DNA of 64,000 nt from a bacterium (lineage in GTDB: Bacteria; Patescibacteriota; Minisyncoccia; Portnoybacterales; JAKAHB01): NCBI GenBank assembly GCA_021815315.1, contig JAKAHB010000002.1, positions 6,427-70,426 of the forward strand, in the 5' to 3' direction. The first letter of the stretch is position 1. Each line of letters starts with the position of its first letter. The notes below the pieces were generated by a model that saw only the letters and a program-made list of their open reading frames with translations, ran no database searches and was not told the origin of the DNA. The position numbers and the translations under genes were made by a program. Shown here piece after piece: positions 1,101 to 53,994 of the stretch.

Positions 1101-1445
1101 ATTTTTCTAGTGATGATTAATTATCTTGAGAGAGCCAACCCAAAGGGGCGTTGACCAAACAGCCGCTTAATATTCAAAAATTTGCTCCTTTTTATCCAAT
1201 CAACGCTAAACACGGCGCAAATTTCTGAATATTTTGCAACAGAACAAAACCCATTTGACCTTTTAAACAAATGGGGCAGAAAATTAAAACGTTAAAAAAT
1301 AACCCGACGCTTTCAACAAATACATTATAACTCATTTTAAAAAGCCACGCAATTTATCCCCAAAATGGGGATAACTCAGACGCTCCCAGTTTCCGAAAAG
1401 ACCACGCCTGATGAGCCAGCTGACGATTTTAAGGATTGTTCAACT

Positions 1446-1472
1446 AAAAAACCGCCCCGAGGGCGGTTTTTT
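1446..1472 (-). terminator. intrinsic terminator downstream of ftsZ
   Basis: aaaaaaccgccc-cga-gggcggtttttt GC hairpin flanked by A/T runs, readable on both strands. Confidence 0.7.
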
Positions 1473-1486
1473 AGTTGAACTTGGTT

Positions 1487-12345: not shown

Positions 12346-13332
12346 TCAAAAAGCCTCGTTTCTTGAGACAAGTCTTAGTTTTGTTCCTTCTATCCGGCCC
12401 GTGTTTAAAAAGGTGTTTAAATGTTCCCTAGAATTAAGCGTGTTGTTTGGCACCAACCCTAAAATTATTGCGATAATTTGGTCTGTTGTTTGAATAAACA
12501 TTTTCATTTCAGGAGTTTTTACAGCGGTACTCATTTTCCCAAAGTGTACCAACCTATTTCGAGCGTTTACCAACAACCGAACATTATTCCTTTGTTTATT
12601 ATTAAGACTGATGCCTAAATATTTATATAAAACATAGGATATTTTAACTTCCGATTTTGTATCTTTAAGATCTTTATCCGAAAGCCACTCTCTATTTTCA
12701 ATAGAGAATAATGACTCCCAAATTGTCCATGCGGTAAGGAAAGATTTTTCTATAATCTGCCATCGGATCATGTCCCTATATAAAATAAGAAAATATCCGT
12801 CATCGTATATATCCCTCCATTTGTTGGTTGAAACATGCTCTATCACCTTTTCAATTGCTGCATCAAATCCGGAAGAAACCCATTCCATGTCCCAAATAGG
12901 AATTCCGTTGGCAGTTTCCGGGTCAATAATTTCACCAGTGGCCTTGACCTTAAATTTTGAATTTAAATTTATAGACAACCTCAACTGACCGCCAAAAGCC
13001 GTATGCGGACGATAATCTTCTATTATTGGTTCCTCTCCGTTCCAGTCCTTAGCAAAAACATTTCTGCCAGTAAAAATAGAAAGAAAAAATAGAATGTCGT
13101 GAAGCTTTGTAAGAGCGGCATTTTCAAAGATCAAGGTTGCTTTTGCCTCTGTATCTGGGATACTCACTGTTGCGGTTATTTGATGGCTGCCTGTTATTTG
13201 GGTGACACTGTAATTAGGCATTAACCCGTACGCTTCGTCATAATTTGAAACTGCGTCAAAGACGTAATTACAAATATTTAACTGACGTACACCAGTAGGA
13301 AATTCTAAATTGTAAATAGATTTGTTCTCCAT
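12346..13332 (-). CDS. hypothetical two-domain protein with a C-terminal HEPN-like motif (Rx4-6H)
   Basis: 328 aa in an AT-rich segment. The C-terminal helical region contains NARNRLVHFG, which fits 'RNxxxH'. No other recognisable motifs. Confidence 0.45.
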   Translation of the reverse strand: MENKSIYNLEFPTGVRQLNICNYVFDAVSNYDEAYGLMPNYSVTQITGSHQITATVSIPDTEAKATLIFENAALTKLHDILFFLSIFTGRNVFAKDWNGEEPIIEDYRPHTAFGGQLRLSINLNSKFKVKATGEIIDPETANGIPIWDMEWVSSGFDAAIEKVIEHVSTNKWRDIYDDGYFLILYRDMIRWQIIEKSFLTAWTIWESLFSIENREWLSDKDLKDTKSEVKISYVLYKYLGISLNNKQRNNVRLLVNARNRLVHFGKMSTAVKTPEMKMFIQTTDQIIAIILGLVPNNTLNSREHLNTFLNTGRIEGTKLRLVSRNEAF

Positions 13333-14867: not shown

Positions 14868-15061
14868 GACTATACCTTGTTTTATACGCGTTTCCCCTTC
14901 TTTTCTTTCTTTATTATATAATGCCGGCCTTGCCCGTTGTAAAGACCCGACCTTATGGCGGTTCGGACGGAAGACAATTTCCGCCTTGGTGAACTTTGGC
15001 CCGGTATTTGTTTCTTGCCGCTTGTCTGTCCGTCCCAGCGAACGGCTTGTGGGGAATAAAT

Positions 15062-15093
15062 AAAAAAAGCGGGGGCCGCGTGTGCGACCCCCT
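15062..15093 (-). terminator. intrinsic terminator of the small Cys-containing ORF
   Basis: gggggtcgcacacgcggccccc hairpin followed by a U7 run on the minus strand. Confidence 0.65.
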
Positions 15094-15148
15094 TGGGTTG
15101 TTCCTCCAGAAGCGCGAGGCCTGTGGCGCTCCACCAGGCCAGGGGGGC

Positions 15149-15376
15149 CTAGGTGGTGGCGATGCTGGCCAGGACGTTGGCCAAAAGCTCCTGCTTGATG
15201 CGCACGGCGCCCTCGCCGTGCCCGATCTTGCCTTCCAACTCCGTGGCGGCGCCCACGATGATGAGGTCGCCGGTGGCCTCGTCCTTGAACACGGCCGGGC
15301 AGCAGGAGCTGCCGCCGCACCTCTGATGCAGCGGGGTTAAGTTGGTCAGGCTGACTTTCTTCTTAACGGCGCTCAT
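15149..15376 (-). CDS. small hypothetical Cys-containing protein (75 aa) in a GC-rich cassette
   Basis: Reads MSAVKKKVSLTNLTPLHQRCGGSSCCPAVFKDEATGDLIIVGAATELEGKIGHGEGAVRIKQ.... A strong SD (GAGGAGG) sits immediately upstream, with a 7-bp hairpin abutting it. The segment is about 65% GC. Confidence 0.45.
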   Translation of the reverse strand: MSAVKKKVSLTNLTPLHQRCGGSSCCPAVFKDEATGDLIIVGAATELEGKIGHGEGAVRIKQELLANVLASIATT

Positions 15377-15428
15377 AGAAACCTCCTCGCGGACCCTGCA
15401 AAGGTCCGCCGTTTTGGGTTGATTTTTT

Positions 15429-15457
15429 CATTATAGGCATTATCCCAAACTTGTCAA
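15429..15457 (-). promoter_or_regulatory. sigma-70-like promoter TTGACA-17-TATAAT for the small Cys ORF
   Basis: Minus-strand reading gives TTGACAagtttgggataatgccTATAAT. Confidence 0.5.
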
Positions 15458-15488
15458 GGGCCCACTCCAAAAAACAGTTCCGCTCTTT

Positions 15489-15527
15489 CATTTGTATCTT
15501 CCACACCTAGGCGTGGAAGATACAAAT
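15489..15527. repeat. near-perfect palindrome, copy 1 of 2
   Basis: catttgtatcttccacacctaggcgtggaagatacaaatg in a divergent promoter region. It is a paralogue of the palindrome at 51666-51702. Confidence 0.6.
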
Positions 15528-15562
15528 GAATAGAAAAATAAATAATGTGTTAAAATATTTTT

Positions 15563-16657
15563 ATGCACCCATCCGCTCAATATTTTCATGCTTTTAATTC
15601 CTTCAATGAAAAAATAGGCCCGGTTAGATTCAAAAAAATAAAAACTTATTTTGGCGACCTGCCCACCGCCTGGAAGGGTTCGGCGGAAGACTTTGTCGCC
15701 GCCGGACTGGAAGAAAGCTTGGCTCAAGAAATCGTCTTGCGCCGCCAGAATTTTGACCCCGAGACGGAACTGCAAAAAGTTTTGGACCAAAACATTGATG
15801 TTTTAACCGTTGAAGACGACGCTTATCCCCTCTTACTAAAAGAAATTCACCAGCCTCCTTTTATCCTCTACAAACAAGGCGGTTTTGAGCTACAAGACGA
15901 ATTTGCTTTGGCCATTGTCGGCTCCAGAAAATTAACAGCCTATGGCCAGCAAGCCGCTACTAAACTGGCCCGAGAATTGGCGCAGGCGGGGCTGACCATT
16001 GTTTCCGGTCTGGCTCAAGGAATTGACACTTTGGCTCATCGCCAAGCGCTTGAGGTTGGCAGCCGGACTCTGGCGGTCATCGGTTCGGGCCTTGACCAGC
16101 CCAGCATTTTCCCGCCCGGTAACCGGCATTTGGCCCAAGAGATAGCGGCCAAAGGCTGTTTGCTTTCCGAATACCCACCTAAAAGTTTGGCCTTGCCGCA
16201 TCATTTTCCGGCGCGCAACCGTATTATAAGCGGACTGGCCCTGGGAACCTTGATCGTTGAAGCCTCAATAAAGTCCGGCGCGCTGATCACCGCCCGCCAC
16301 GCCCTGGAGCAAAACCGCGAAGTCTTTGCCGTCCCCGGGCCCATCACCTCCCCCAATTCCCTTGGCCCCAACAACCTGATTAAACTAGGCGCCAAAGCGG
16401 TTACTTGCGCCCAAGACATTTTGGACGAATTAAACCTGCAATCGCTCAAACAAAACATCCAAGCGCGAGAAATTTTGCCCGACACCAAAGAAGAGGCTCT
16501 AATTCTGGAAGTTCTTATTGACGAACCCGTTCATGTTGACAAAATAATTGAGTTGACTAAACTTGACACAGCCACGATCAACTCCGTTTTGTCAATGATG
16601 GAAATAAAAGGCAAAATTAAAAACTTGGGAGGGATGAATTATATTAAGAATTTTTAA
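15563..16657 (+). CDS. dprA: DNA processing protein DprA (Smf)
   Basis: Rossmann-like DprA core (LAVIGSGLD...PARNRIISGL...ALITAR). Confidence 0.9.
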   Translation: MHPSAQYFHAFNSFNEKIGPVRFKKIKTYFGDLPTAWKGSAEDFVAAGLEESLAQEIVLRRQNFDPETELQKVLDQNIDVLTVEDDAYPLLLKEIHQPPFILYKQGGFELQDEFALAIVGSRKLTAYGQQAATKLARELAQAGLTIVSGLAQGIDTLAHRQALEVGSRTLAVIGSGLDQPSIFPPGNRHLAQEIAAKGCLLSEYPPKSLALPHHFPARNRIISGLALGTLIVEASIKSGALITARHALEQNREVFAVPGPITSPNSLGPNNLIKLGAKAVTCAQDILDELNLQSLKQNIQAREILPDTKEEALILEVLIDEPVHVDKIIELTKLDTATINSVLSMMEIKGKIKNLGGMNYIKNF

Positions 16658-20681: not shown

Positions 20682-21674
20682 TTATCTGGTGATTCTTTTG
20701 ATAATCGTGTCTAGCTCTTCTTTGTCTTTAAAAGGAATGACAACATTGCCGCCAATGCCTCTTTTGGAAATCCTTACCGGACGTCCTAAAAATCCGGTCA
20801 GGTTGTCCATGTATTCTTTCACTTCGCTCAAAAAGGCCGATCTCCTGACGTGCTCCTTGACCGTTACCTGCTTGGCGCGTTCTTCCACTTCGCGCACCGT
20901 CATGCTGGAGTTCAGCATCTCTTTAAAGATTCTCATTATTTCCGCCTTGTCTTTGATGCCGGCCAGTCCGCGCGCGTGTCCTTCACTGATCTTGCCTTCA
21001 ATTACGGCTCTTTGCACCTCGCCGGGCAAATTTAACAGACGGATAGTGTTGGTTACCAGCTCGCGACTCTTGCCGATTTTTTTGCCGATAGCTTCGTGAG
21101 TCAGCCCGAACTCTTGATGCAGTTTTGAAAAGGCCCTAGCCTTTTCTATAGCGTTGAGATCGGCGCGTTGAATATTTTCGATCAAGGCCAGCTCCAGTTT
21201 CTGCTGGTCGGTCGTATTGCGCACCACTACCGGCACGTGGGGCAGTCCCGCCATTTTGGCCGCTTCCAACCTGCGATGCCCGGCAATCAAATAATATTCA
21301 ATGTCTTGCCCTCGTTCGTTTTCTTTGATTTTTTTGCTGACCACCAGGGGCTGAATAATGCCGTACTCTTTAATCGAGAGCGCCAATTCCAACAGTTGCC
21401 CTCGGTCTAGTTCAACGCGGGGCTGATAGGGGTTGGGAGAAATTTTATCTACCTCTACTAAAAAAACGCTCGCGTTTCTTGGCAGTTCATCCACGCCAGC
21501 CTCGGCCAAAGCCTTTTTAGATTCGGCTTGTACTTTGATTTTTATCTTCTCGTTAATCGGCCCTGACTGAACAACCGGGACAGATGACTCTTCTTTTGGC
21601 TGTTTAATCGGAATTAACGATTGTAATCCTTTGCCCAAAACTCCCATAGAAATAAACAAAAACTCAAAACTCAA
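20682..21674 (-). CDS. parB: chromosome partitioning protein ParB/Spo0J
   Basis: ParB N-terminal box (GIIQPLVV...YYLIAGHRRLEAAKMAGL) and an HTH. Confidence 0.9.
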   Translation of the reverse strand: MSFEFLFISMGVLGKGLQSLIPIKQPKEESSVPVVQSGPINEKIKIKVQAESKKALAEAGVDELPRNASVFLVEVDKISPNPYQPRVELDRGQLLELALSIKEYGIIQPLVVSKKIKENERGQDIEYYLIAGHRRLEAAKMAGLPHVPVVVRNTTDQQKLELALIENIQRADLNAIEKARAFSKLHQEFGLTHEAIGKKIGKSRELVTNTIRLLNLPGEVQRAVIEGKISEGHARGLAGIKDKAEIMRIFKEMLNSSMTVREVEERAKQVTVKEHVRRSAFLSEVKEYMDNLTGFLGRPVRISKRGIGGNVVIPFKDKEELDTIIKRITR

Positions 21675-21714
21675 AACTGACTAACAAATTCAATCCGGAA
21701 TTTTGAAATTGTTC

Positions 21715-22482
21715 TTATACCAAATCCATTTTAATGATTTCCTCGGCTAAATCTTTGTAGGCTCGGGCCCCTTTTGACCGCGGATGATATTCTGAAATTA
21801 TTTTACCATGACTTGGCGCTTCCGCCAACTTAACGCATCTTGGGATAACCGCTTCAAAAACCGGTGCCGGAAAATGTTGCTGTACTTCCTTGGCTACTTG
21901 ACGCGATAACCGATTGCGTCGGTCATACATTGTCAAAAGCGCCCCTTTTATTTTAAGGTCCGTCGCTAAATTCTCGTTTATTAAAGTGACTGTCTTAAAA
22001 AGCTGACCCAAACCTTCCAGCGCGTAGTATTCCGTTTGCACCGGAATAATCAATTCTTCCGAAGCTAAAAGTCCGTTCAGGGTCAAAATTCCCAAACTGG
22101 GCGGGCAATCAATGAGAATATAATCGTAACTGGTGCGAATGCGGCTCAAGGCTTTTTTTAGCACAAACTCTCTTTCCGGTTCGTTGACCAGCTCCACGGC
22201 CGCTCCGGCAAGATCGGGGGTAGCTGGCAAAAGTTCGTAACCGGAAATTCTCGTTCTTAAAATCGTTTCTTCCGGTTTTTTCAAGCCGGCCATAACCTGA
22301 TAAAGTCCGTGGTTTAATTCATCCTGGTTCACTCCCAGACCGGAAGTGGCATTGCCTTGCGGGTCCAAATCCACCAGCAAAACATGGCGTCCCAGATGCG
22401 CCAAATAACCGGCTAAATTAACCGAAGTGGTGGTTTTGCCGGTGCCTCCTTTTTGATTGACAATGCCTACAATTCTCGCCAT
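21715..22482 (-). CDS. parA: chromosome partitioning ATPase ParA/Soj
   Basis: Deviant Walker A (KGGTGKTTTSVNLA) starting at MARIVGIVNQ. Start taken as the internal ATG at 22480-22482; the ORF-track extension upstream overlaps the tRNA fragment and is considered read-through. Confidence 0.9.
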   Translation of the reverse strand: MARIVGIVNQKGGTGKTTTSVNLAGYLAHLGRHVLLVDLDPQGNATSGLGVNQDELNHGLYQVMAGLKKPEETILRTRISGYELLPATPDLAGAAVELVNEPEREFVLKKALSRIRTSYDYILIDCPPSLGILTLNGLLASEELIIPVQTEYYALEGLGQLFKTVTLINENLATDLKIKGALLTMYDRRNRLSRQVAKEVQQHFPAPVFEAVIPRCVKLAEAPSHGKIISEYHPRSKGARAYKDLAEEIIKMDLV

Positions 22483-22564
22483 ATATCCGTTATTATAGCA
22501 AATTAAACAAATTGACAAAAGGCCCCAATTAAGGCTAAAATGGAGCAATAGTAAGCCGCGGTGG

Positions 22565-22648
22565 CGGCAAAGAATAAAAACGTTATTGCGAAAATGGAGG
22601 GCGAGTGGCGAAACCGGCAGACCTGCCTGCCGGCAGGCAGGCGCGCAC
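22565..22648 (+). pseudogene. partial duplicate of the tRNA-Leu 5' flank plus 5' half, carrying a 20-nt palindromic insertion
   Basis: About 70 nt (ggcaaagaataaaaacgtta...gggcgagtggcgaaaccggcagac) nearly identical to 22912-22969. The palindrome cctgcctgccggcaggcagg (22622-22641) interrupts the D-stem region. Confidence 0.6.
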
Positions 22649-22651
22649 AAA

Positions 22652-23122: not shown

Positions 23123-23162
23123 CAAATATAGTCTAGAACCAACGGCCACTCTTGTTTAAACT

Positions 23163-23187
23163 AAAAACCCCGCGAAGCGGGGTTTTT
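23163..23187. terminator. bidirectional intrinsic terminator
   Basis: aaaaaccccgc-gaag-cggggttttt. Confidence 0.75.
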
Positions 23188-23189
23188 AG

Positions 23190-24350
23190 TTAAGTTCCTT
23201 CCGCTACCCGCCTAAATCCTCCCTTCCCATAGGTGGCCTCAAGTAACCGAGCTAGTTCTAAAAGTTTACCCGAAAGAGCGGCCTTGGCAAAGACCCTAAA
23301 GACATCTTCTTTGGTAGAAAACTTGCCAGGAAATCTTTCGTAGACGGACTTGATAATCATTTGCAAAGTTCTCCTGGCCTCTTTATAACTTCTCGGCAAT
23401 TCTTTTTCTACCTCTTCTCCTCGCGAATTTTTCTTCTCAAATATTAAACAAATTTCGTTTATTTTTTCCGGCCATTGACTTGGTTGGTATTTTCCCGCTA
23501 TGTAACGATTTCTTTTTTCCAGTTCCGGTTGCAATTCCGAAACGTCATAAAAACAAAAATCCTCAAATCTTCTGGTTAGCTCTTCGGTAATCGCTTCGTT
23601 TAAGCTGTCTAAAAATCGCTTTCCCCATTTTTTGGAATGAATGCCCAAGCCAACTCTTCTGATTTCCGCCGGCTCATTTCGCCTTGTTTCCACTGCTTGA
23701 AAAGCATGAAAATGAATTAGCTCGTGAGTAGTTATGCCCGCCTGGAACAACAGGTTATCTTTGAGTCTCTCCAGAGGCAAATTTTGTTTCAGTCCCACTC
23801 TTTGCAAAGATGGCCTATAAAAACCTTTGCTGCGAAGGGCCGATAGGGCTGAAAAATCCGACGCCTGTGCCCCTTCTTTGCTTAAATCAACAAGATGAAA
23901 GTGCTCCGGCTTTATCTCCCCCACTGGTTGCCCTCCGTAGGCGCGGATAAATTCTGGCATTTTTTTGATTATTGTTTCCAACACTCTTGTCCGCTCCGGA
24001 GTTTTTTCTATCTCAAAGCTTTCCGGAGTCTGATCAACAAATTTCTGCTGATAATGAAGATCGGCAGCTTTTACTTCGGCGGGATCGGGGCCAATAATCC
24101 TAGAAATGCCGTGCTGTCTGAAGCCCTCGTTATTGATTTGATGACGCGCCATATCCGCCAATAGCGCCTTCTTTCTTTCTTGAATCTCGTTTTGTAATTC
24201 TTGATACCTAGGTCTTTCCAGCGGGGTTATTTCCTCTTGACCTGCTCCAAGACCAAAGATAGAATCAAGAATTTCCTGGGCGCTAATTCCGCCCTTGGGT
24301 TTTTTGTCCTTTTCATTAACTGGGGAGATGTCGCCTGGTTCCTTTTCCAT
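23190..24350 (-). CDS. hypothetical protein with an HExxH zinc-metallopeptidase-like motif
   Basis: 386 aa containing ITTHELIHFHAF with acidic residues downstream. No family assigned. Confidence 0.4.
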   Translation of the reverse strand: MEKEPGDISPVNEKDKKPKGGISAQEILDSIFGLGAGQEEITPLERPRYQELQNEIQERKKALLADMARHQINNEGFRQHGISRIIGPDPAEVKAADLHYQQKFVDQTPESFEIEKTPERTRVLETIIKKMPEFIRAYGGQPVGEIKPEHFHLVDLSKEGAQASDFSALSALRSKGFYRPSLQRVGLKQNLPLERLKDNLLFQAGITTHELIHFHAFQAVETRRNEPAEIRRVGLGIHSKKWGKRFLDSLNEAITEELTRRFEDFCFYDVSELQPELEKRNRYIAGKYQPSQWPEKINEICLIFEKKNSRGEEVEKELPRSYKEARRTLQMIIKSVYERFPGKFSTKEDVFRVFAKAALSGKLLELARLLEATYGKGGFRRVAEGT

Positions 24351-43608: not shown

Positions 43609-43920
43609 TAAATATGCCGCGGTGGGAATTTTTTGAACATCGCACAACACGGCATATCTGGTTCGCAAGCTAAATAAAAAAACGTCGCCTTGCTTTAGAA
43701 GCTTGACGACGACGAGGTCGAAACATCAGGGCCGCTATAGATACGGCCGCCGGGTGGACCCGCAGCGCCACCGGGCATACGGACTTCGTCCGTATAGAAC
43801 TGCATCGACCTTCGTATTACTTATACTAGCGGAGAAAAATAGCATCTGTCAATGCGAATCCCGGGAGTTTCGCGCAAAGCTTGGCCTTTTGTGAAATCAT
43901 GCAACGTTAGTTAAACTATA

Positions 43921-43941
43921 AAACCGCCCAGAGGCGGTTTT
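43921..43941. terminator. bidirectional terminator hairpin
   Basis: aaaccgccc-aga-ggcggtttt. Confidence 0.6.
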
Positions 43942-43977
43942 ATAGTTTAACCCAAAGCTCGCGTCTTTTGTTTAACC

Positions 43978-46229: not shown

Positions 46230-49200
46230 CTACTTTTTAATCCCGACTTTAATCACGCCGCTGTTAACCTTAACCTCGCTCACGACATCATATTGGCCTG
46301 TCTCTTCAAACGCACCCGTTTGTTTAGCTCGCCAAACGGAACTTTGTTCATCGGCAAAAATAGATTTGTCGCTCAAGGCCAAAATGCTCACCGTGTCTTC
46401 GGGCTTAAGCCCCAGCTCTTTTCTCATTTGGGCGTAGTGGCGCTCCACTTCTCTTTTTGTCCCCTCCTTTTTTAACTCGTCGGTTATCTCCAAGTCCAAA
46501 TCAAAATTCTCGCCTGTTTTAACTTCTTTGACATTAATCTCGTCAGCAACCAGGGCCAGCAATTTTTCACTTAATTTTACTTCAACGGTCAAACCGGCCA
46601 AGGGCTGACGAATTTTAATGCCAGCTTCGGCGCGTTTGGCCAAGGCCCTAGCCACGACTTCTCGCGCCAGAATCATTTCTTTTTCCAAGTCTTCGTCAAT
46701 TAAGTTTCTATCGGCCACGGGGTAATCAGCCAAATGCACCGACTCTTGGTCTTTTTTCGCTCTCAAATTTTGATATATTTCCTCGGTGATAAACGGAGCA
46801 AACGGCGCCAGCAGTTTGACTAACCCCAGCAAAATAAAATGCAGAGTTTGGGTCGCTTCTTCTTTTTCTTTTGCGTCTTTGGGCCTTTGAAAACGTTCTC
46901 GCGAACGGCGAATATACCAATTGGAAAGCTCGTCAATAAAGTCTTCAATCAAGCGCGCCGCGCTGACAACGTCGTATCTCTCCAGGTGATCCGTTACAGT
47001 CGCCGTCAAAGAATTAAACCTGGAAACAATCCAACGATCAAGCAAATTCTTGGATTTTGTTTCGCTCGATTTGAAGTTTTTATTTTGGTAGGTTCGCAAA
47101 AACATAAAAGAGTTCAGCAGCGTTCCAAAAATTCTCCTGTTTTTGTCCAACACGTCTTTGGTATCAAACCGCTTGGAACCGCCTGCCTGATTAACCGTGT
47201 ATAAATACCAACGCAACGTGTCGGCGCCGAATTTTTCGCACATCTCCCACGGGTCAACCACGTTGCCTTTGGACTTGGACATTTTTTTGCCTTGAGCGTC
47301 CAACACGTGCCCCAAACAAATTACGTTCCGATAAGGCGCGCCGTCTTCCACCACCCCGCAATGTTCCATCAAGGTAGCAACGGCCAGCAGGGTATAAAAC
47401 CAACCGCGGGTTTGGTCTATGGCTTCACAAATATAGTCGGCCGGATAGTGATTTTTAAACTTGACCGCGCTGTCTTCTTTTTGCGGATAACCCCATTGCG
47501 AAAAAGGCATGGAACCCGAATCAAACCAAACATCCAAAACGTCTTTTTCTCTTTGCATCTGCCCGCCGCACTTGCAAGCAAGCTTTAAATCGTCAAGATA
47601 GGGGCGGTGCAAGTCCAGTTCATAATTTTGATTATGCGGCAGGGGCGCAAAGTCAATCTCTTTAAACTCGGCGTTTTCCAAAAAGTTTTCTTCGCCGTTT
47701 TCCAGGTGGACTAAGGCAACAGCCTCTTTGGGGTTAAAGCCTTGCGACCCAGATTCCATCAGCCAAAGAGGAAAGTTGTGGCTGACCACCAGAATATTCC
47801 GGTTTTTATATTTTTGCTCCAGCTCATAGATAAATTCGGTCACCCGATTCTTGACCCGGTTTAACGTCTCTCCGTTTTCCGGCGCCAAATTGAATCTTTC
47901 TTCCAGACTGGTAAAATTTCTGTATTCCTCGTCACTTTGGCCGTCCAATACTCCGGTAAAAATTTCTCTTAGTCTTTCGTCAAAAACAATTTTATTTTTA
48001 TCCATCCCCAACGCTTCAGCCGCCATTTCGGCTGTTTGTTTGGTCCGCAAGAAATCTGAGGCGAAAATTAAATCTATTTTTTCTTTAGTCAGTTTGGCCA
48101 CGGCTTGTTTCACTTGTTCTTGCCCCGTCTCGGTTAAAGCCAGATGATTGGTCTTAATGTTGCCGTTTAGAACATTTTTAATGTTGTTTTCAGCTTGTCC
48201 GTGACGCATCAAAAAATATTTGTTACCCGAAGACACGACTTGTTTTTTCAGTTCTTCCGGAGAACCGATCATTTCCTGCCAGCCACATTGTTCGCATTGC
48301 CAAACCGGCAAAGGAGTTCCCCAATATCGTTCCCGCGACAAGGCCCAGTCCTTGGCTTCTTTGATAAACTCGCCGAAGCGCCCATCTTTGATGTGGGCCG
48401 GTTCCCAATTAATTTTTTGGTTGTTGGCTACTAGCTCCTTTCGTAATTGAGACATCCTGATAAACCAAGATTCTTTGGCGTAATAGAGCAGGGGACTGTC
48501 GCAACGCCAGCAAAAAGGATAGTCGTGCTCATATGGCTCTTCTTCCAAAAGCAAATTTCTTTTTTTCAGATCTTCAATAATGTCCTCATCTGCTTCTTTA
48601 ACAAATTTGCCCTCGCCCGGGATGCCAAAGCCCGACATAATAATGCCTTCCTTATCAACCGTATGAATGACCGATAATCCCTCTTTCACGCCCACCGCCA
48701 TATCGTCTTCGCCGTAAGCAGGAGCCAAATGCACAATGCCGGTGCCATCTTGCGTGGAAACAAAATCCCCGGCCACAACCTCCAGATCGGTTTCTTTTTG
48801 GTCGGGGTTTTTGAAAAGAGGTTCGTATTTTAAATTAAGGAGTCCTTCGCCTTTCAGCTCTTTGATTATTTCGCCTTCAGGGCTTATCGCCTCAAGCCTG
48901 TCTTTGGCTAAAATAAAAAATTCCCCTGACTTCTTATCTTTGACTTGGCAGTAAACTACTTTTGAGTTCACCGCTAACCCCACGTTCGCCGGTAAAGTCC
49001 AGGGCGTGGTCGTCCAAACCAGAAAATAGGTATTTGGTTCCCCCACTACCGGGAATTTCACGTAAATGGAGTTTTCCTTGACTTTCTTATAACCCTGCGC
49101 CACCTCGTGGCTGGAAAGGCTGGTGCCGCAACGCGGACAGTGCGGCACAATTTTAAATCCCTTATAAATTAATTCTTTGTCCCAAACTTTTTTCAGAATT

Positions 49201-49658
49201 TGCCAAATGCTGGTTATAAAATAGTTTTCGTAAGTGACATAGGGATCTTCCAAGTCCACCCAGTAAGCGATTCTTTGCGTCAACTTTTCCCATTCATCCT
49301 TATAACGCCAGACGCTTTCTTTGCACTTTTGATTAAATTTCTCAATGCCGTATTTTTCAATGTCTTTTTTGTTTTTCAGTCCCAACTCTTTTTCCACTTG
49401 CAATTCCACCGGCAAACCGTGAGTGTCCCAACCGGCTTTGCGGTCAACAAAAAAGCCCTGCATTGTTTTAAAACGTGGGATAATGTCCTTGAACGCCCGA
49501 GCTTCCACGTGATGAATCCCCGGCCGACCGTTGGCTGTCGGCGGCCCCTCAAAAAAAACAAAGTTCTTCGCCCCCCTGTTTTTTTCCAGACTCTTTCGGA
49601 AAATATTTTTCTCTTGCCAGAATTTTAAGATTTTTTCTTCAATTTGAGCGAAATTCAT
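46230..49658 (-). CDS. ileS: isoleucyl-tRNA synthetase (type 2) with an inserted histidine-phosphatase domain
   Basis: 1142 aa. HIGH-like PTANGRPGIHH, CWRC and CEQC zinc knuckles, and KMSKSKGN. Residues 476 to 675 (DNA about 47634-49233) form a complete PGAM-like histidine-phosphatase module (LMRHGQAEN...RTKQTAE...VVSHNFP) not normally present in IleRS. Confidence 0.9.
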   Translation of the reverse strand: MNFAQIEEKILKFWQEKNIFRKSLEKNRGAKNFVFFEGPPTANGRPGIHHVEARAFKDIIPRFKTMQGFFVDRKAGWDTHGLPVELQVEKELGLKNKKDIEKYGIEKFNQKCKESVWRYKDEWEKLTQRIAYWVDLEDPYVTYENYFITSIWQILKKVWDKELIYKGFKIVPHCPRCGTSLSSHEVAQGYKKVKENSIYVKFPVVGEPNTYFLVWTTTPWTLPANVGLAVNSKVVYCQVKDKKSGEFFILAKDRLEAISPEGEIIKELKGEGLLNLKYEPLFKNPDQKETDLEVVAGDFVSTQDGTGIVHLAPAYGEDDMAVGVKEGLSVIHTVDKEGIIMSGFGIPGEGKFVKEADEDIIEDLKKRNLLLEEEPYEHDYPFCWRCDSPLLYYAKESWFIRMSQLRKELVANNQKINWEPAHIKDGRFGEFIKEAKDWALSRERYWGTPLPVWQCEQCGWQEMIGSPEELKKQVVSSGNKYFLMRHGQAENNIKNVLNGNIKTNHLALTETGQEQVKQAVAKLTKEKIDLIFASDFLRTKQTAEMAAEALGMDKNKIVFDERLREIFTGVLDGQSDEEYRNFTSLEERFNLAPENGETLNRVKNRVTEFIYELEQKYKNRNILVVSHNFPLWLMESGSQGFNPKEAVALVHLENGEENFLENAEFKEIDFAPLPHNQNYELDLHRPYLDDLKLACKCGGQMQREKDVLDVWFDSGSMPFSQWGYPQKEDSAVKFKNHYPADYICEAIDQTRGWFYTLLAVATLMEHCGVVEDGAPYRNVICLGHVLDAQGKKMSKSKGNVVDPWEMCEKFGADTLRWYLYTVNQAGGSKRFDTKDVLDKNRRIFGTLLNSFMFLRTYQNKNFKSSETKSKNLLDRWIVSRFNSLTATVTDHLERYDVVSAARLIEDFIDELSNWYIRRSRERFQRPKDAKEKEEATQTLHFILLGLVKLLAPFAPFITEEIYQNLRAKKDQESVHLADYPVADRNLIDEDLEKEMILAREVVARALAKRAEAGIKIRQPLAGLTVEVKLSEKLLALVADEINVKEVKTGENFDLDLEITDELKKEGTKREVERHYAQMRKELGLKPEDTVSILALSDKSIFADEQSSVWRAKQTGAFEETGQYDVVSEVKVNSGVIKVGIKK

Positions 49659-50816: not shown

Positions 50817-51606
50817 TTTTGCCGCTATCACTCCCCATCCGCCAATCGCGGTTTCGGGAATAGGCCGGGGAGAAATTAAAAAAATTCCAAAGACCATCCA
50901 GGCTTTCCGAGCGCTGGGAGAGAAGTTTGCCGTCTCTCAAATTGAAACGACTGTTATTATCTCTCCCCACGGCCAATCAAGCTTTGATGCCTTCAACTTG
51001 GGCGGCTCCTTGGCCATGTCCGGCGATTTTGAAAATTTCGGCCACGGGGAAATTAGTTTCAGCTTTTCCGGCGATCCGAAACTAGCCCGACAAATCGCGG
51101 GAAAAGCCGCCCAAGAAAAAATCCCCTGCCGGCTTATTGATTACCCCTCTTTGGATCACGGCCTGCTGGTGCCACTTTATTTTTTGACCAGCCAACAAGA
51201 AGCGACTACCAAGCTTTTGCCGGTATTTTTTTCCGGGTTATCGTTGCAACAACATTTTTCTTTCGGCCAAGCGTTGGGCCAAGTCATAAAAGCCAGCGAT
51301 CAAAAAATCGCCCTGGTGGCTTCGGGCGATTTGTCGCATTGTTTGTCCCCCAACGCCCCCGGCGGATTTTCATCGCAAGGCAAAATTTTTGACGAGACGT
51401 TGATTAACCTGATTCAAGAAAAAAGATGGGCGGAGATTGTAAATCTGGACTCGGAACTTATTGCGGGGGCAGGTGAGTGCGGTTTACGTTCAATTATCAT
51501 TTTGCTTGGCGCCTTAGCCGAGATTAACAAAAATTTCTCGCTGGACATCCGCTCCTACGAAGCACCTTTTGGCGTGGGCTATTTAACCGCCGAAGCGAAA
51601 TTTTGA
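50809..51606 (+). CDS. LigB/Memo-superfamily protein (probable AmmeMemoRadiSam system protein B)
   Basis: 265 aa. ITPHPP...VIISPHGQS resembles class III extradiol dioxygenase/Memo folds. It overlaps the AmrS stop by 8 nt. Confidence 0.55.
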   Translation: MNNFAAITPHPPIAVSGIGRGEIKKIPKTIQAFRALGEKFAVSQIETTVIISPHGQSSFDAFNLGGSLAMSGDFENFGHGEISFSFSGDPKLARQIAGKAAQEKIPCRLIDYPSLDHGLLVPLYFLTSQQEATTKLLPVFFSGLSLQQHFSFGQALGQVIKASDQKIALVASGDLSHCLSPNAPGGFSSQGKIFDETLINLIQEKRWAEIVNLDSELIAGAGECGLRSIIILLGALAEINKNFSLDIRSYEAPFGVGYLTAEAKF

Positions 51607-51665
51607 GTTAAAGTAAAAAGACGATAAACACTAAAATTATTAGAGGAGGAGAATATTTCGCCCCG

Positions 51666-51702
51666 TTTGTATTTTCCACGCATATGCGTGGAAAATACAA
51701 AT
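51666..51702. repeat. near-perfect palindrome, copy 2 of 2
   Basis: tttgtattttccacgcatatgcgtggaaaatacaaa between two convergent genes. It shares the arms TTTGTATnTTCCAC / GTGGAAnATACAAA with the 15489-15527 site, with a compensatory change. Confidence 0.6.
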
Positions 51703-51775
51703 AAGCTGTTTAACGAAGAAATAAAACCTTTAACCCCCGCCCAGACCCAACCTTACTCGCTTCTTTGGCTTCGCC

Positions 51776-53368
51776 CTACATTTTCTCTGGCGCAGAAATG
51801 CCTAGGATTCCCTCCAGTGAATCTTGCAAAACAATTTTAGTTGCCTTCACCAGTTGCAATCTGGCGTTTTGCAGGTTTTTATCTTCACCCAATACCCGGC
51901 AATTTTCATAAAACTTATGAAACGCCGTCACCAGGCCCAAAACATACTGTGGAACACGCTGAACTTGATAATCCACCGCCGTATCCGCGATAATTTCGGG
52001 GTATTTTACAAGCTGCCGAATCAAGTTTAATTCTTCCTTGGCCTCAAGCAGTTTCAAATTTTCCGTTTCTTCTTTTTTGTTCTCGTCTTTTGTTTTAGTC
52101 AAAATACTTTCTATTCTGGCGTGCCCGTACTGCGCGTAATAAACCGGGTTTTTTTGCGATTGTTCTTTGGCCAGCGCCAAATCAAAATCCATATGCGTGT
52201 TGGCTGAATACATGGCCATAAAAAATCGGAAAGCGTCGCGCCCCACTTCTGCCAGCACTTCATCCACCGTCACATAAACTCCTTTTCTCTTGGACATCCT
52301 GACTTCCCGGCCCTCTTGCACTAAGCGCACAAACTGCATCAATAAAATTTCAAAAGAGGTTTTATCAAGTCCCAAAGAGGCCACAAATCCCTTCACGCGC
52401 GCCACATCGCCGTGATGATCGGCTCCCCAAACATTGATTACCCTATTAAATTTTCTTTCAATAAATTTATTGTAATGATAGGCGCAATCAACGCCAAAGT
52501 AAGTCGGCTCGCCATCGCTTTTTTTAAGCGGCCGGTCTTTTTCATCGCCGAATTTCTCGGCCATAAACCACAAAGCGCCGTCTTTTTCGTAAGCTAAATT
52601 TTGTTTTCTTAAGAGGTTAAAAACGTCTTCAACTTTTCCGGAATCGCGCAGTTCTTTTTGTTCGGAGAACCAAACGTCCAGCTTGATGCCCATGGCCGCC
52701 ACCGTCTTTTTAATCTGTTCTGCAATAATGGCCTGCGCTTTTTGGCCGACGATTTTTGGGTCGGTGCTCTCTATTTGCGAGGCCAGTTCGTCAATATAGC
52801 CCCCTTTGTATTCGGCTTCTTCATCTTTCAAAATTGAATGGCCCAGTTTTTCAATTTGTCCACCCGCATCGTTGACGTAGTATTCTTTGGTAACGTCGTA
52901 GCCCGATTTTTTCAAAATATTTCCCAACACGTCGCCATAAACCCCGCCCCGACCATTGCCCAGCGTTAAGGGGCCAGTGGGGTTGGCAGAAATAAATTCC
53001 ACTTGAGCCTTTTTGTTTTGGCCTGAATTATTTTCCCCGTATTCCTCCCCTTGGGCCAAAATTTTCCCGACTTGATTTTGCAAAAATTCATCGGACAAAT
53101 AAAAATTAACAAAGCCGGGACTGACCGCTTCAATTTTGGAAAAAAATTGTTCTTTGTTTTGGTTCACGATGCTTTCGGCCATCTGCTGGGCAATTTCAAG
53201 CGGCGATTTTTTTGTTGTCTTGGCCAAAACAAAAGCCATGGAGCTAGAAAAGTCTCCTAAAGCGGAATTTTTAGGGCGTTCGGTTAAAATTTCTGATTCT
53301 TCAATTTTTGTCCCAAAAAGATTTCCGATCTCCCGAGCCAATATTTTTTGGATCTCTTCGCGCATCAT
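51776..53368 (-). CDS. argS: arginyl-tRNA synthetase
   Basis: 530 aa with the class I HIGH region (ANPTGPLTLGNGRG) and a DALR anticodon-binding C-terminus. Confidence 0.9.
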   Translation of the reverse strand: MMREEIQKILAREIGNLFGTKIEESEILTERPKNSALGDFSSSMAFVLAKTTKKSPLEIAQQMAESIVNQNKEQFFSKIEAVSPGFVNFYLSDEFLQNQVGKILAQGEEYGENNSGQNKKAQVEFISANPTGPLTLGNGRGGVYGDVLGNILKKSGYDVTKEYYVNDAGGQIEKLGHSILKDEEAEYKGGYIDELASQIESTDPKIVGQKAQAIIAEQIKKTVAAMGIKLDVWFSEQKELRDSGKVEDVFNLLRKQNLAYEKDGALWFMAEKFGDEKDRPLKKSDGEPTYFGVDCAYHYNKFIERKFNRVINVWGADHHGDVARVKGFVASLGLDKTSFEILLMQFVRLVQEGREVRMSKRKGVYVTVDEVLAEVGRDAFRFFMAMYSANTHMDFDLALAKEQSQKNPVYYAQYGHARIESILTKTKDENKKEETENLKLLEAKEELNLIRQLVKYPEIIADTAVDYQVQRVPQYVLGLVTAFHKFYENCRVLGEDKNLQNARLQLVKATKIVLQDSLEGILGISAPEKM

Positions 53369-53414
53369 AATACTTTGATTTTAGCCCAAATAAACAAATT
53401 TTAGCAAGCCGTTT

Positions 53415-53465
53415 TGTAAAGGCCGGGTCTTTACAAGTTATCCAGTAAAGACCCGGCCTTTACAA
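53415..53465. repeat. 20-bp perfect inverted repeat in the argS/smpB divergent region
   Basis: ttgtaaaggccgggtctttacaa ... gtaaagacccggcctttacaa. Each arm is itself hairpin-capable. Confidence 0.55.
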
Positions 53466-53544
53466 AACAAAAAACCGCTCTTGTCAATAGCGAGCTTCTA
53501 TGTTATGCTTTGCTATAAATAAACAGTCGGATCCGCGAGACAGT

Positions 53545-53994
53545 ATGAAAACGATTTCTGAAAATAAAAAAGCCCGTTTTGATTTTGAATTCCTGGAAAA
53601 TTTTGAGGCCGGTTTGGCGTTGTTTGGATTTGAGGTTAAAGCGATAAAAACAGGGCATATAAACCTGACCGGCTCCCACATTATTATTCGCGACGAAGAA
53701 GCGCTTTTGGTGGGCGTTAGCATCCCCCCCTATCAACCTAAAAACACTCCAGCGGGATATGATCTCCAACGCACTCGCAAGCTTTTATTGCGCAAACAAG
53801 AGATAAAAAGACTGGTTGGCCGCACTCAAGAAAAAGGCTTGACTTTGGTGCCAATTCGTGTGTATACTAAACAAAGTAAAATCAAGTTAGAGTTTGCTCT
53901 GGCTCGCGGTCGCGGTAAAGCCGACAAGAGGCAAAAAATCGCCAAACGTGACGCCCGGCGCAAGATTGAACTTGCCTTAAGGGGCAAATTTTGA
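53545..53994 (+). CDS. smpB: SsrA-binding protein
   Basis: Starts MKTISENKKARFDFEFLE...GLALFGFEVKAIK, which is SmpB-like. Start at the internal ATG 53545. tmRNA follows. Confidence 0.9.
   Translation: MKTISENKKARFDFEFLENFEAGLALFGFEVKAIKTGHINLTGSHIIIRDEEALLVGVSIPPYQPKNTPAGYDLQRTRKLLLRKQEIKRLVGRTQEKGLTLVPIRVYTKQSKIKLEFALARGRGKADKRQKIAKRDARRKIELALRGKF

What the first reader, a model, noticed from the sequence alone, without database searches (positions are those of the whole stretch)
15489..15527. Conserved covarying palindrome (site 1 of 2) in the divergent promoter region between the small Cys ORF and dprA
catttgtatCttccacAcctaggCgtggaaGatacaaatg is a near-perfect 39-bp palindrome. A second site (51666-51702), tttgtatTttccacGcatatgCgtggaaAatacaaa, shares the arms TTTGTATnTTCCAC/GTGGAAnATACAAA. 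Where the sites differ (C/G versus T/A at the 'n' positions), both arms change so that dyad symmetry is kept. Such compensatory variation implies selection for the hairpin or dyad itself, as for an operator of a dimeric regulator, a structured RNA motif or a small mobile palindromic element. Site 1 overlaps the presumptive dprA promoter.
Basis: seen in the sequence. Interest (0 to 1): 0.55.

Follow-up and report, generated by a model that had tools for sequence, protein, structure and literature searches.

The report
Interspersed perfect palindrome repeat family
The two palindromes are real members of a small family of intergenic, symmetry-preserving DNA repeats in an uncultured Portnoybacteria-like (CPR) bacterium; they behave like REP-type interspersed palindromes, not like a switch that controls the dprA gene.

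Summary
Site 1 (core 15491-15526, extended 15487-15530, one A/C mismatch) and site 2 (51666-51701, perfect 36 bp) share the arms TTTGTATnTTCCAC, with 0 matches expected by chance. A third copy lies 5.9 kb left of the window. An orthologous copy sits at the same LigB/argS junction in a related species (argS 78% identical): 32/36 bases are conserved and all 4 differences form compensated pairs, while the flanks are at random identity. A fifth, related copy lies upstream of argS in a third species. Across the five copies, 93.8% of cells pair, 10 pairs change on both sides, and 0/500 shuffles reach this.

The dprA-operator reading fails. The closest relative keeps the dprA core promoter but carries an unrelated GC-rich hairpin in place of site 1. 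Two of the three copies in this genome lie in convergent intergenic regions with no promoter. The palindromes are not intrinsic terminators (no U-tract), and sites 1 and 3 are probably untranscribed.

The same gene junctions carry palindromes of different families in different species, and a second family (exact 19-mer GTAAAGGCCGGGTCTTTAC, three copies) co-occurs. Best reading: a DNA-level, REP/REPIN-like interspersed palindromic repeat. Its mobilising or binding protein is unknown. Interest is modest.

The parts
15487..15530 (.). T-family palindrome, copy W1 (finding site 1). Arms are TTCATTTGTATCTTCCACACCT / AGGCGTGGAAGATACAAATGAA with one A/C mismatch. It lies between divergent promoters.
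   Evidence: As ssDNA it folds at -17.3 kcal/mol (z = -9.7). As RNA it folds at -29.2 (+ strand) and -33.0 (- strand) kcal/mol. The covariance model scores it 61.3 bits.
51666..51701 (.). T-family palindrome, copy W2 (finding site 2). It is a perfect 36-bp palindrome, TTTGTATTTTCCACGCAT|ATGCGTGGAAAATACAAA, lying 60 nt after the LigB/Memo stop and 75 nt after the argS stop (convergent genes).
   Evidence: No terminator-like or promoter-like site lies nearby. An orthologous copy exists in species B. Logan k=31 contigs break inside it.
53411..53468 (.). G-family inverted doublet (I1): two inverted copies of the 19-mer GTAAAGGCCGGGTCTTTAC, forming 24-nt arms and a 10-nt loop. It belongs to a second palindromic repeat family that co-occurs with the T family. 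It is wedged between the argS -35 and the smpB -35.
   Evidence: An orthologous hairpin in species B differs by two compensated pairs. The exact 19-mer recurs 22 nt from copy W3.
14938..14958 (.). Decayed G-family unit (TTGTAAAGACCCGACCTTATG) at the far side of the GC-rich small-ORF cassette.
   Evidence: Sequence read. In species B the aligned region carries an intact G hairpin. The assignment is weak.
15430..15457 (-). Perfect sigma-70 promoter TTGACA-16-TATAAT of the 75-aa ORF. W1 begins 30 nt upstream of its -35.
   Evidence: 12 of 12 matches. It is conserved in species B.
15546..15556 (+). Extended -10 element (TGTGTTAAAAT) of the dprA promoter. The ATG follows 6 nt later at 15563, so the mRNA is probably leaderless. 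W1 ends 16 nt upstream of this element.
   Evidence: It is conserved in four species whether or not a palindrome is present.
15149..15376 (-). A 75-aa Cys-rich small ORF in a GC-rich inserted cassette, flanked by W1 on one side and the decayed G unit on the other.
   Evidence: It has an RBS, a promoter and a terminator. It belongs to a real protein family of 33 cluster representatives. It has no Pfam or NCBIfam match. It is absent from species C.

Best explanation
Sites 1 and 2 are copies of a low-copy family of interspersed, strictly intergenic DNA palindromes, here called the T family. The half-site is about TTATTTGTATyTyyCACrCaT, and each copy is 26-50 bp with its axis at the centre. The host is a Portnoybacteria-like CPR bacterium. 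The family works at the DNA level, in the way REP/REPIN-type elements do. The unit is a sequence that can pair with itself, as a hairpin on single-stranded DNA or as a cruciform. Its two arms are kept identical because intrastrand pairing is either what the unknown recognising or propagating protein needs, or is what drives arm-to-arm correction by template switching at quasi-palindromes. Copies persist for long periods at some junctions (LigB/argS). At other junctions they are gained, lost or replaced by palindromes of other families (small-ORF/dprA, argS/smpB). The family is not a gene-specific operator for dprA.

Shown: the repeat family, its intergenic location, compensated evolution, sequence constraint against random-level flanks, turnover between species, and the absence of terminator features.

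Inferred: that pairing happens in DNA and not RNA, that copies spread by copying (mobility), and that a dedicated protein exists.
For: (1) It is a family, not a pair. A third copy in the same genome lies 5.9 kb left of the window (L038 18594-18619). Its central 26 bp match W2 at 24 positions, and the single change, at the outermost pair, is present in both arms; the inner 24 bp are identical to W2. This gives 3 copies in 80.7 kb.

(2) All three copies are intergenic in a genome that is about 87% coding.

(3) Compensated evolution: on alignment A2, 93.8% of cells pair, 10 pairs change on both sides, 0/500 shuffles reach this, and slid controls give 33-57%.

(4) Orthologous persistence under constraint. 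In species B, the LigB-side contigs (L033-L035) and the argS-side contig (L028) all end in the same ...TTTCATATTTGTATTTCTCACGCATATGCG. This reconstructs a 50-bp perfect palindrome. The core is 32/36 identical to W2, whereas the flanks score 27 and 42 identities against shuffled means of 29.1 and 40.0. Two strains of species B differ at 6 of about 38 flank positions and at 0 arm positions.

(5) Turnover at fixed junctions. The small-ORF/dprA junction has T in the window, a G-family hairpin in species B and nothing in species C. The LigB/argS junction has T, T, and an unrelated 34-bp GC-rich perfect palindrome. The argS/smpB junction has a G doublet, a G hairpin, and a T-like copy X.

(6) A second family co-occurs. 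The exact 19-mer G unit occurs three times, as a singlet and as an inverted doublet, which is the REP-singlet/REPIN-doublet layout.

(7) W1 lies between divergent promoters. W3 lies between a terminator and an outward-facing promoter. Both are therefore probably untranscribed.

(8) No target-site duplication flanks any copy, as for REP and IS200/IS605-type elements (read).
Against: No RAYT/IS200-type or other candidate enzyme is encoded in the 80.7 kb examined, and the rest of the genome could not be scanned. The copy number is known only as about 1 per 27 kb and may be low genome-wide. The REP hallmark GT[AG]G is absent. The copies are perfect palindromes with no loop, whereas REPs are imperfect with loops. 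No clean insertion or empty-site pair was found: where a copy is absent, the whole spacer is unalignable. No exact or near copies were found in viral contigs. The few matches in genome and metagenome collections are unrelated hairpins. Strong sequence conservation (32/36) fits a protein-binding site equally well.
Confidence: 0.45

Rival explanations
1. The palindrome is a double-stranded DNA binding site for a symmetric (dimeric or tetrameric) sequence-specific protein. This would be a global regulator, a nucleoid-associated protein, or a DnaA/ParB-like factor. It would act as an upstream activator or UP-like site at promoters, and as a roadblock or organiser elsewhere.
For: Sequence, not just pairing, is conserved: 32/36 bases against random-level flanks. 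The TTCCA core is nearly invariant. The centre of each copy is itself palindromic (CATATG, CCTAGG, GTATAC); a hairpin loop would not require this. W1, X and the G doublet I1 each end 0-13 nt from a -35 position, and their A-rich outer arms face the promoter. The half-site resembles a DnaA box (TTTTCCACG versus TTWTNCACA) and a Bacillus parS half-site (TGTTCCAC); this resemblance is from memory and was not tested. A perfect DnaA box lies 10 nt from W3 and 8 nt from the species C palindrome, although such boxes are rare. No canonical parS is present near parAB.
Against: Protein contacts do not explain why non-conserved positions change on both arms together. Perfect symmetry over 36-50 bp is unusual for operators. 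W2/R2 and W3 have no nearby promoter. The same junction carries unrelated palindromes in sister species. No HTH regulator lies in the 80.7 kb, and ParB and an ECF sigma are the only DNA-binding candidates. The 8-bp gap between half-sites does not fit parS geometry.
Confidence: 0.25
2. The palindrome acts as an RNA hairpin. It would be a 3'-end stabiliser, a factor-dependent or U-tract-less bidirectional terminator, or an RNase III site in the 3' UTRs of convergent genes.
For: W2 and its ortholog R2 are the only hairpins at the LigB/argS convergent junction. Four other convergent junctions in the window carry canonical bidirectional terminators. The RNA folds are very stable, -26 to -33 kcal/mol with z about -8 to -10. 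The W1 mismatch becomes a G-U pair on the minus strand.
Against: There is no U-tract; the polarity is reversed, with the T-tract before and the A-tract after the GC core. W1 lies upstream of both flanking promoters. W3 lies just after a canonical terminator and upstream of an outward promoter. X lies upstream of the argS promoter. An RNA loop would not need the palindromic centres.
Confidence: 0.12
3. The palindrome is a site-specific recombination target with inverted 14-nt arms around an 8-bp core, a loxP/dif-like layout. Recombination between copies would invert or excise the intervening DNA.
For: The 14-8-14 architecture fits. W2 and W3 share an identical inner 24 bp and lie 57.6 kb apart. 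Palindromes bracket argS and the small-ORF cassette.
Against: No recombinase gene lies in the 80.7 kb. The cores are symmetric, so they give no directionality. W1 has a different core from W2 and W3. Gene order and orientation around argS are the same in all three species. All independent assemblies agree on one arrangement.
Confidence: 0.05
4. This is the first reader's main reading: an operator through which a dimeric repressor controls the dprA promoter, and perhaps the small ORF promoter as well.
For: W1 ends at the -35 position of the dprA promoter, and its centre is about 54 bp upstream of the inferred start.
Against: The dprA core promoter is conserved in four species but the palindrome is present in only one. 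The other copies are not at promoters of related genes.
Confidence: 0.05

Closest known systems
REP / REPIN (BIME) elements of Enterobacteria and Pseudomonas, mobilised by RAYT (Y1 HUH) transposases
   Same: Both are short (about 20-50 nt), self-complementary, strictly extragenic repeats dispersed around the chromosome. Stems evolve by compensated change. Neither makes target-site duplications. Both occur as singlets and as inverted doublets, as family G does here. The same intergenic slot is occupied by different repeat types in related species, as reported for BIMEs in E. coli versus Salmonella (from memory). Both are frequent between convergent genes.
   Different: The 5' GT[AG]G motif is absent. 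These palindromes are perfect through the centre and have no loop or bulge. Only about 1 copy per 27 kb was seen. No RAYT was found in the 80.7 kb available. Two of the T/G copies sit between divergent promoters, which is unusual for REPs. The host is a reduced CPR genome, and the paper search found no paper linking REPIN or RAYT terms with CPR.
IS200/IS605-derived palindrome-associated transposable elements (PATEs)
   Same: Both depend on hairpins and make no target-site duplication. Two different hairpin types (T and G) flank small cargo-like segments: the small-ORF cassette and, adjacent to each other, the W3 locus.
   Different: No TnpA or TnpB gene and no conserved tetranucleotide target were seen. 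One flanked 'cargo' is argS, an essential housekeeping gene in conserved synteny. Each T copy is a full palindrome on its own and is not one subterminal hairpin of a longer element.
Bidirectional intrinsic terminators
   Same: Both are symmetric hairpins between convergent genes with A/T-rich arms around a GC core.
   Different: The polarity is reversed (T-tract, stem, A-tract), so no U-tract follows the stem on either strand, and the terminator scan finds nothing. Canonical terminators exist elsewhere in the same window, one of them directly beside W3.
parS / Noc-binding sites (ParB family) and DnaA boxes
   Same: All are palindromic and dispersed. The T half-site TnTTCCAC resembles the B. 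subtilis parS half TGTTCCAC and the DnaA-box variant TTTTCCACA (from memory).
   Different: The half-sites are separated by 6-8 bp and do not abut. The site is 36-50 bp, not 14-16 bp. Variable positions co-vary between arms. DnaA boxes are not clustered.
Quasi-palindrome template-switch hotspots (E. coli and yeast; PMC7202029)
   Same: This is a known mutational process that converts imperfect inverted repeats into perfect ones. It would produce two-sided 'compensated' changes without selection.
   Different: It explains symmetry. It does not explain the multi-copy family, the conservation of sequence against random-level flanks, or the intergenic restriction.

Membership tests
REP/REPIN (RAYT-associated) | Short self-complementary unit, strictly extragenic and dispersed in several copies | tested here: met
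   There are 3 T copies and 3 G units in 80.7 kb, all intergenic in about 87% coding DNA.
REP/REPIN (RAYT-associated) | Conserved GT[AG]G tetranucleotide at the 5' end of the unit | tested here: not met
   The half-site alignment gives TTATTTGTATyTyyCAC, with no GTAG or GTGG at either end. The G unit starts with GTAAAG.
REP/REPIN (RAYT-associated) | A RAYT gene in the genome, typically flanked by the repeats | not testable with these tools
   No RAYT gene lies in the 80.7 kb seen. The genome and metagenome scans and the contig look-ups were exhausted, so the remaining roughly 220 kb of the contig and the rest of the MAG were not seen.
REP/REPIN (RAYT-associated) | Tens to hundreds of copies per genome | tested here: inconclusive
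   The density is 1 per 27 kb in the sampled region. Extrapolating to about 1 Mb gives roughly 35 copies, but this was not measured.
MITE (TIR plus target-site duplication) | Direct duplication of the target flanking the element | tested here: not met
   The flanks are CGCTCT/TAGAAA (W1), CCCCG/TAAGC (W2) and TTATT/AATTC (R2), with no duplication.
Intrinsic (Rho-independent) terminator | GC-rich stem-loop followed by a U-tract | tested here: not met
   The terminator scan finds 0 sites in 51300-52100. The stem is followed by AAAATACAAA on both strands.
Operator of a dprA regulator | Site conserved upstream of orthologous dprA genes | tested here: not met
   The site is absent in species B (dprA 88% identical), species C (72%) and the L027 relative (70%), although the core promoter is conserved in all of them.
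parS (ParB loading site) | 16-bp palindrome tGTTnCACGTGAAACa with abutting half-sites | tested here: not met
   There is no match with up to 3 mismatches in the window. T half-sites are separated by 8 bp.
Tyrosine- or serine-recombinase core site | A cognate recombinase, and rearranged junctions between copies | tested here: not met
   No recombinase domain is found in the 80.7 kb. Synteny is identical in three species and in all assemblies. Rearrangement at the read level was not testable.
Rfam RNA families | Match at or above the gathering score | tested here: not met
   The only matches are sub-threshold hairpin look-alikes (miRNA precursors at 25-28 bits against gathering scores of 73-135).

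The most novel reading that the evidence does not exclude
The T and G palindromes may be the recognition hairpins of an undescribed, hairpin-dependent DNA system in CPR bacteria. One version is a RAYT/IS200-like or other structure-specific enzyme that moves small GC-rich ORF cassettes into fixed intergenic slots. Another version is cruciform-forming boundary elements in which the exact sequence is interchangeable but a perfect palindrome must occupy particular gene junctions. The LigB/argS junction carries a perfect palindrome with no loop in all three species, from two unrelated families.
Probability: 0.15. Interest if true: 0.65.

Novelty: new member of a known kind. Interest (0 to 1): 0.35.

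Why it matters
CPR/Patescibacteria genomes are small and streamlined and are usually described as poor in repeats. The library search found no paper that links REP/RAYT-type elements with them. A conserved, symmetry-maintaining palindrome family that holds the same gene junctions across species would be a rare handle on DNA-level processes in organisms that cannot be cultured. Such processes include hairpin or cruciform formation, template switching, and a structure-specific protein.

There is also a practical point. These perfect palindromes systematically break k=31 assemblies. They therefore fragment CPR MAGs at predictable places and hide their own copy number.

For dprA and competence regulation the result is negative: the palindrome gives no evidence for a competence operator.

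Tried and rejected
1. Exact-pattern scans. The pattern TGTATNTTCCAC-N4-12-GTGGAANATACA was run against GTDB genomes, JGI metagenomes and viral contigs. The genome scan returned the Janibacter locus (L001) and the metagenome scan 6 loci: two more copies of that locus, two strands of a marine contig, a low-GC contig, and an ORF-poor contig that is probably eukaryotic or organellar. Their GC contents are 0.36-0.72 and their flanks differ. I judged them unrelated hairpins. The source genome is not in those two collections with this motif.

2. Viral scans with a relaxed T pattern and with the G unit returned nothing.

3. Rfam searches at gathering and at E-value thresholds found no family. Only generic hairpin look-alikes appeared.

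4. I tested whether the GC-rich stretch 14.9-15.4 kb is an ncRNA such as RNase P. It is not. It is a real small-protein gene, with codon-respecting conservation and indels against species B and homologs in 33 clusters.

5. Canonical parS is absent.

6. The DnaA-box cluster or origin idea fails. Boxes are not clustered and GC skew is monotonic across the window. The adjacency of two perfect boxes to palindromes is kept only as a side note.

7. TIGR-Tas stem-loop arrays, found in the literature search, were rejected. They need tandem units, asymmetric spacers, box C/D motifs and a Tas gene, and none of these is present.

8. I looked for a regulator or recombinase in the window by Pfam annotation of all sizeable ORFs. 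None was found.

9. A covariance model of the family was searched over 195 kb of this genome and its relatives. It recovered only the copies already known.

10. An inversion of argS between its flanking palindromes in species C was rejected. The LigB-side and argS-3'-side contigs share the same GC-rich palindrome, so the orientation is conserved.

Full report
OBSERVATION. Both palindromes are in the sequence as described. The shared pattern TTTGTATNTTCCAC-N4-12-GTGGAANATACAAA matches exactly twice, at 15491-15526 and 51666-51701. None is expected in 100 dinucleotide-preserving shuffles. Site 1 (W1) extends to 22-nt arms (15487-15530) with a single A/C mismatch. Site 2 (W2) is a perfect 36-bp palindrome through its centre. 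The two sites differ at the 'n' position (C:G versus T:A) and in the centre (CCTAGG versus CATATG), and both differences are present on both arms. Neither regex with mismatches nor a covariance model with filters off finds another copy in the 64-kb window.

CONTEXT. Names that sources attach to homologs place the window in a Candidatus Portnoybacteria-like member of the Patescibacteria (CPR). The same DNA occurs in MAGs GCA_027347425.1 and GCA_027424105.1 and in a 303-kb ENA contig.

W1 lies between two divergent genes.
- On its left is a 75-aa Cys-rich ORF on the minus strand (15149-15376). This ORF has a 12/12 consensus promoter at 15457-15430, the RBS GAGGAGG and its own terminator.
- On its right is dprA, starting at 15563.
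- The dprA promoter is an extended -10 element, TGTGTTAAAAT, only 6 nt before the ATG, and it is conserved in four species. The mRNA is therefore probably leaderless.
- W1 ends at the position a -35 would occupy, but no -35 hexamer is recognisable there.

W2 lies between two convergent genes, 60 nt after the stop of a LigB/Memo (AmmeMemoRadiSam B) gene and 75 nt after the stop of argS. No promoter-like or terminator-like site is nearby. Four other convergent junctions in the window carry canonical bidirectional terminators of the form A-tract, GC stem, loop, T-tract.

MORE COPIES IN THE SAME GENOME. Look-ups extended the sequence by 8.5 kb on the left and 8.2 kb on the right. This revealed a third copy, W3 (L038 18594-18619, window coordinates -5911 to -5886), with the sequence TTTGCTTTTTCCACGCAT|ATGCGTGGAAAAACAAAG. 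Its central 26 bp match W2 at 24 positions; the one change, at the outermost pair, is on both arms, and the inner 24 bp are identical to W2. Its outer arms pair with one bulge. W3 sits in a convergent intergenic region. It lies 14 nt after a canonical terminator and 58 nt upstream of an outward-facing promoter, so it is probably not transcribed. The tally is three copies in 80.7 kb, all intergenic in DNA that is about 87% coding.

RELATED SPECIES. Homologs of dprA, argS and LigB gave loci from two relatives.
- Species B (dprA 88%, argS 78%, LigB 77% identical). Three contigs arriving from LigB (L033-L035) and one arriving from argS (L028) all stop in the same string...TTTCATATTTGTATTTCTCACGCATATGCG. 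Joined, they give a 50-bp perfect palindrome, R2, at the orthologous junction. The join is inferred from synteny and from the shared terminal 30-mer.
- R2 against W2. The 36-bp core is 32/36 identical, and the four differences are two compensated pairs (TTTTCCAC to TTTCTCAC on both arms). The flanks are at random identity: 27 and 42 identities against shuffled means of 29.1 and 40.0. Two strains of species B differ at 6 of about 38 flank positions and at none in the arm.
- Species C (dprA 72%, argS 68%, LigB 57%). The same junction holds an unrelated GC-rich 34-bp perfect palindrome, CATCGGACGGGCTGATG|CATCAGCCCGTCCGATG. A T-like copy, X (...CCAAGTAT|ATACTTGGAAAATAAAAATAAAG), lies immediately upstream of the argS promoter. 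The window carries a different palindrome at that position (see below).

At the dprA junction the picture differs.
- Species B keeps the small-ORF cassette and the dprA core promoter. The roughly 90-nt spacer between them is unalignable and carries a GC-rich hairpin of another family.
- Species C and the L027 relative (dprA 70%) have short spacers and no palindrome.

On an alignment of W1, W2, W3, R2 and X, 93.8% of cells pair and 10 pairs change on both sides. No shuffle out of 500 reaches these values, and sliding the partner by 1-3 columns drops pairing to 33-57%.

A SECOND FAMILY. The palindrome at 53411-53468 (I1) consists of two inverted copies of the 19-mer GTAAAGGCCGGGTCTTTAC. It is wedged between the -35 hexamers of the divergent argS and smpB promoters. 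The exact 19-mer recurs as a singlet 22 nt from W3, and a decayed copy lies at about 14938-14958. Species B has three related hairpins (AAGGYCGRGCCTTG-loop-CAAGGCCCGRCCTT), one of them orthologous to I1 and differing from it by two compensated pairs. So the same three junctions carry palindromes in several species, but the family occupying each junction changes.

WHAT IT IS NOT.
- It is not a dprA operator. The promoter is conserved without the palindrome, and two of three copies are not at promoters.
- It is not an intrinsic terminator. The GC core is followed by an A-rich tract on both strands, and W3 lies beside a genuine terminator.
- It is probably not an RNA element. W1 and W3 lie where no transcript is expected, and the centres are themselves palindromic, which a loop would not need.
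- It is not a MITE, because there are no target-site duplications.
- It is not parS. No canonical parS occurs with up to 3 mismatches, and the half-sites are 8 bp apart.
- It is not a known RNA family.
- No HTH regulator, recombinase or transposase is encoded in the 80.7 kb.
- Matches to the motif in public genome and metagenome collections are unrelated hairpins, and viral contigs have none.

MOST LIKELY MECHANISM. The evidence points to a DNA-level, self-pairing repeat of the REP/REPIN kind. The features behind this reading are:
- a dispersed, strictly intergenic family;
- arms kept complementary through compensated change;
- long persistence at some slots and family replacement at others;
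- singlet and inverted-doublet forms in the companion family;
- no target-site duplications.

Two processes could keep the arms identical, and they are not exclusive. One is selection by a protein that recognises the folded single strand, as HUH transposases do. The other is arm-to-arm correction by template switching at quasi-palindromes, a documented mutational mechanism (PMC7202029). The strong conservation of sequence against random-level flanks shows that more than pairing is constrained, so a sequence-specific partner probably exists, but it was not identified.

The main rival is a double-stranded DNA binding site for a symmetric protein. Several observations favour it:
- the TTCCA core is nearly invariant;
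- the centres are palindromic;
- W1, X and I1 abut -35 positions;
- the half-site resembles DnaA-box and parS half-sites;
- a rare perfect DnaA box sits next to W3 and next to the species C palindrome.

This rival does not explain the two-sided changes at unconserved positions, the perfection over 36-50 bp, or the swapping of families at a junction. I put the REP-like reading at about 0.45 and the binding-site reading at about 0.25. The remaining probability is spread over the RNA, recombination-site and dprA-operator readings.

NOVELTY AND INTEREST. Interspersed palindromic repeats are a well-known kind. This would be a new family in a phylum where the paper search found no paper linking REPIN or RAYT terms with CPR. 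It also departs from classical REPs: it has no GTAG motif, it is perfect with no loop, its density appears low, and it sits at promoter-proximal positions. The finding is real and tidy but of modest interest. It would rise if a dedicated enzyme, or a requirement for a palindrome at fixed junctions, were shown. One practical by-product is that these perfect palindromes break k=31 assemblies at predictable places.

LIMITS. Only 80.7 kb of the genome could be examined. R2 and the species C palindrome are reconstructed from contig ends. Only one arm of X is visible. Transcription start sites are inferred from consensus matches. Sampling of relatives was centred on dprA, argS and LigB, so the apparent association of T copies with argS is an ascertainment effect.

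Noticed in passing
window 15071-15460 (minus strand): A GC-rich (about 60%) mini-cassette sits in a 45% GC genome. It has a perfect TTGACA-16-TATAAT promoter, the RBS GAGGAGG, a 75-aa Cys-rich ORF and its own terminator. It is inserted between the ECF sigma gene and dprA, is present in species B and is absent in species C. The protein belongs to a small uncharacterised family (33 cluster representatives) with the motif LTPxxxRC..CPAVF..LIIVG..GRVGxGEAAIRI and has no Pfam or NCBIfam match.
   Followed up: partly
window 53411-53468; L038 18641-18659; window ~14938-14958: This is a second palindromic repeat family. The exact 19-mer GTAAAGGCCGGGTCTTTAC occurs three times in 80.7 kb, as an inverted doublet exactly between the argS and smpB -35 hexamers and as a singlet next to T copy W3. 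Related hairpins in species B differ from it by compensated changes.
   Followed up: partly
window 15546-15565 and 53366-53383; L023, L024, L027, L030: In several species the -10 elements of dprA and argS lie only 6-9 nt before the ATG. This suggests leaderless mRNAs.
   Followed up: no
window 1438-1480, 23157-23193, 43910-43951: Canonical bidirectional terminators share extended flanks (GTTNAACTAnAAAACCGCC...). The similarity is greater than function alone would require, so they may form another repeat family.
   Followed up: no
window 20682-22650 and the whole window: The parA and parB genes are present, but no canonical parS (TGTTTCACGTGAAACA with up to 3 mismatches) occurs anywhere in the 64 kb.
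   Followed up: partly
L038 18624-18632 (window -5929 to -5921); L030 1667-1675: A perfect DnaA box, TGTGGATAA, lies 10 nt from W3 and 8 nt from the unrelated species C palindrome. Such boxes are rare: 3 in 80.7 kb of this genome and 1 in about 30 kb of species C. There is no box cluster and no GC-skew switch in the window.
   Followed up: partly
contig ends of L017-L022, L028, L030-L037: Logan (k=31) contigs, and one NCBI MAG contig, end inside every perfect palindrome examined. This fragments assemblies at these sites and leaves argS as an isolated 1.7-kb contig in species C.
   Followed up: yes
window 46230-49658 (minus strand): The isoleucyl-tRNA synthetase is 1142 aa long and has a histidine-phosphatase (His_Phos_1) domain inserted. 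The insertion is conserved in species B and C.
   Followed up: no
L038 17760-18300 and 18677-18764 (left of the window): A roughly 550-bp ORF-free stretch carries a TTGACA-17-TACAAT promoter read by eye and a sub-threshold 6S RNA hit (22.9 bits against a gathering score of 46.4). A tiny unit of about 60 nt, consisting of a promoter and a terminator, lies next to W3. Both are possible small RNAs.
   Followed up: no
window 53481-53545: The smpB promoter-like site (53481-53509) overlaps the first in-frame ATG at 53500. The true start is probably the ATG at 53545 (MKTISENKK...).
   Followed up: no
window 12346-13332 (minus strand): A 328-aa ORF has only a weak Apea-like HEPN match (E = 0.0023, below the cut-off). 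It lies next to the anti-sigma/ECF sigma pair and is absent from species C at this position.
   Followed up: no
L028 9300-9900 (species B, smpB-argS spacer): The spacer is 735 bp in species B against 131 bp in the window. It holds another GC-rich insert and three hairpins: TTATTTGTTACCTGCC...GGCAGGTAACAAATAA, a GC hairpin, and a G-family hairpin.
   Followed up: no
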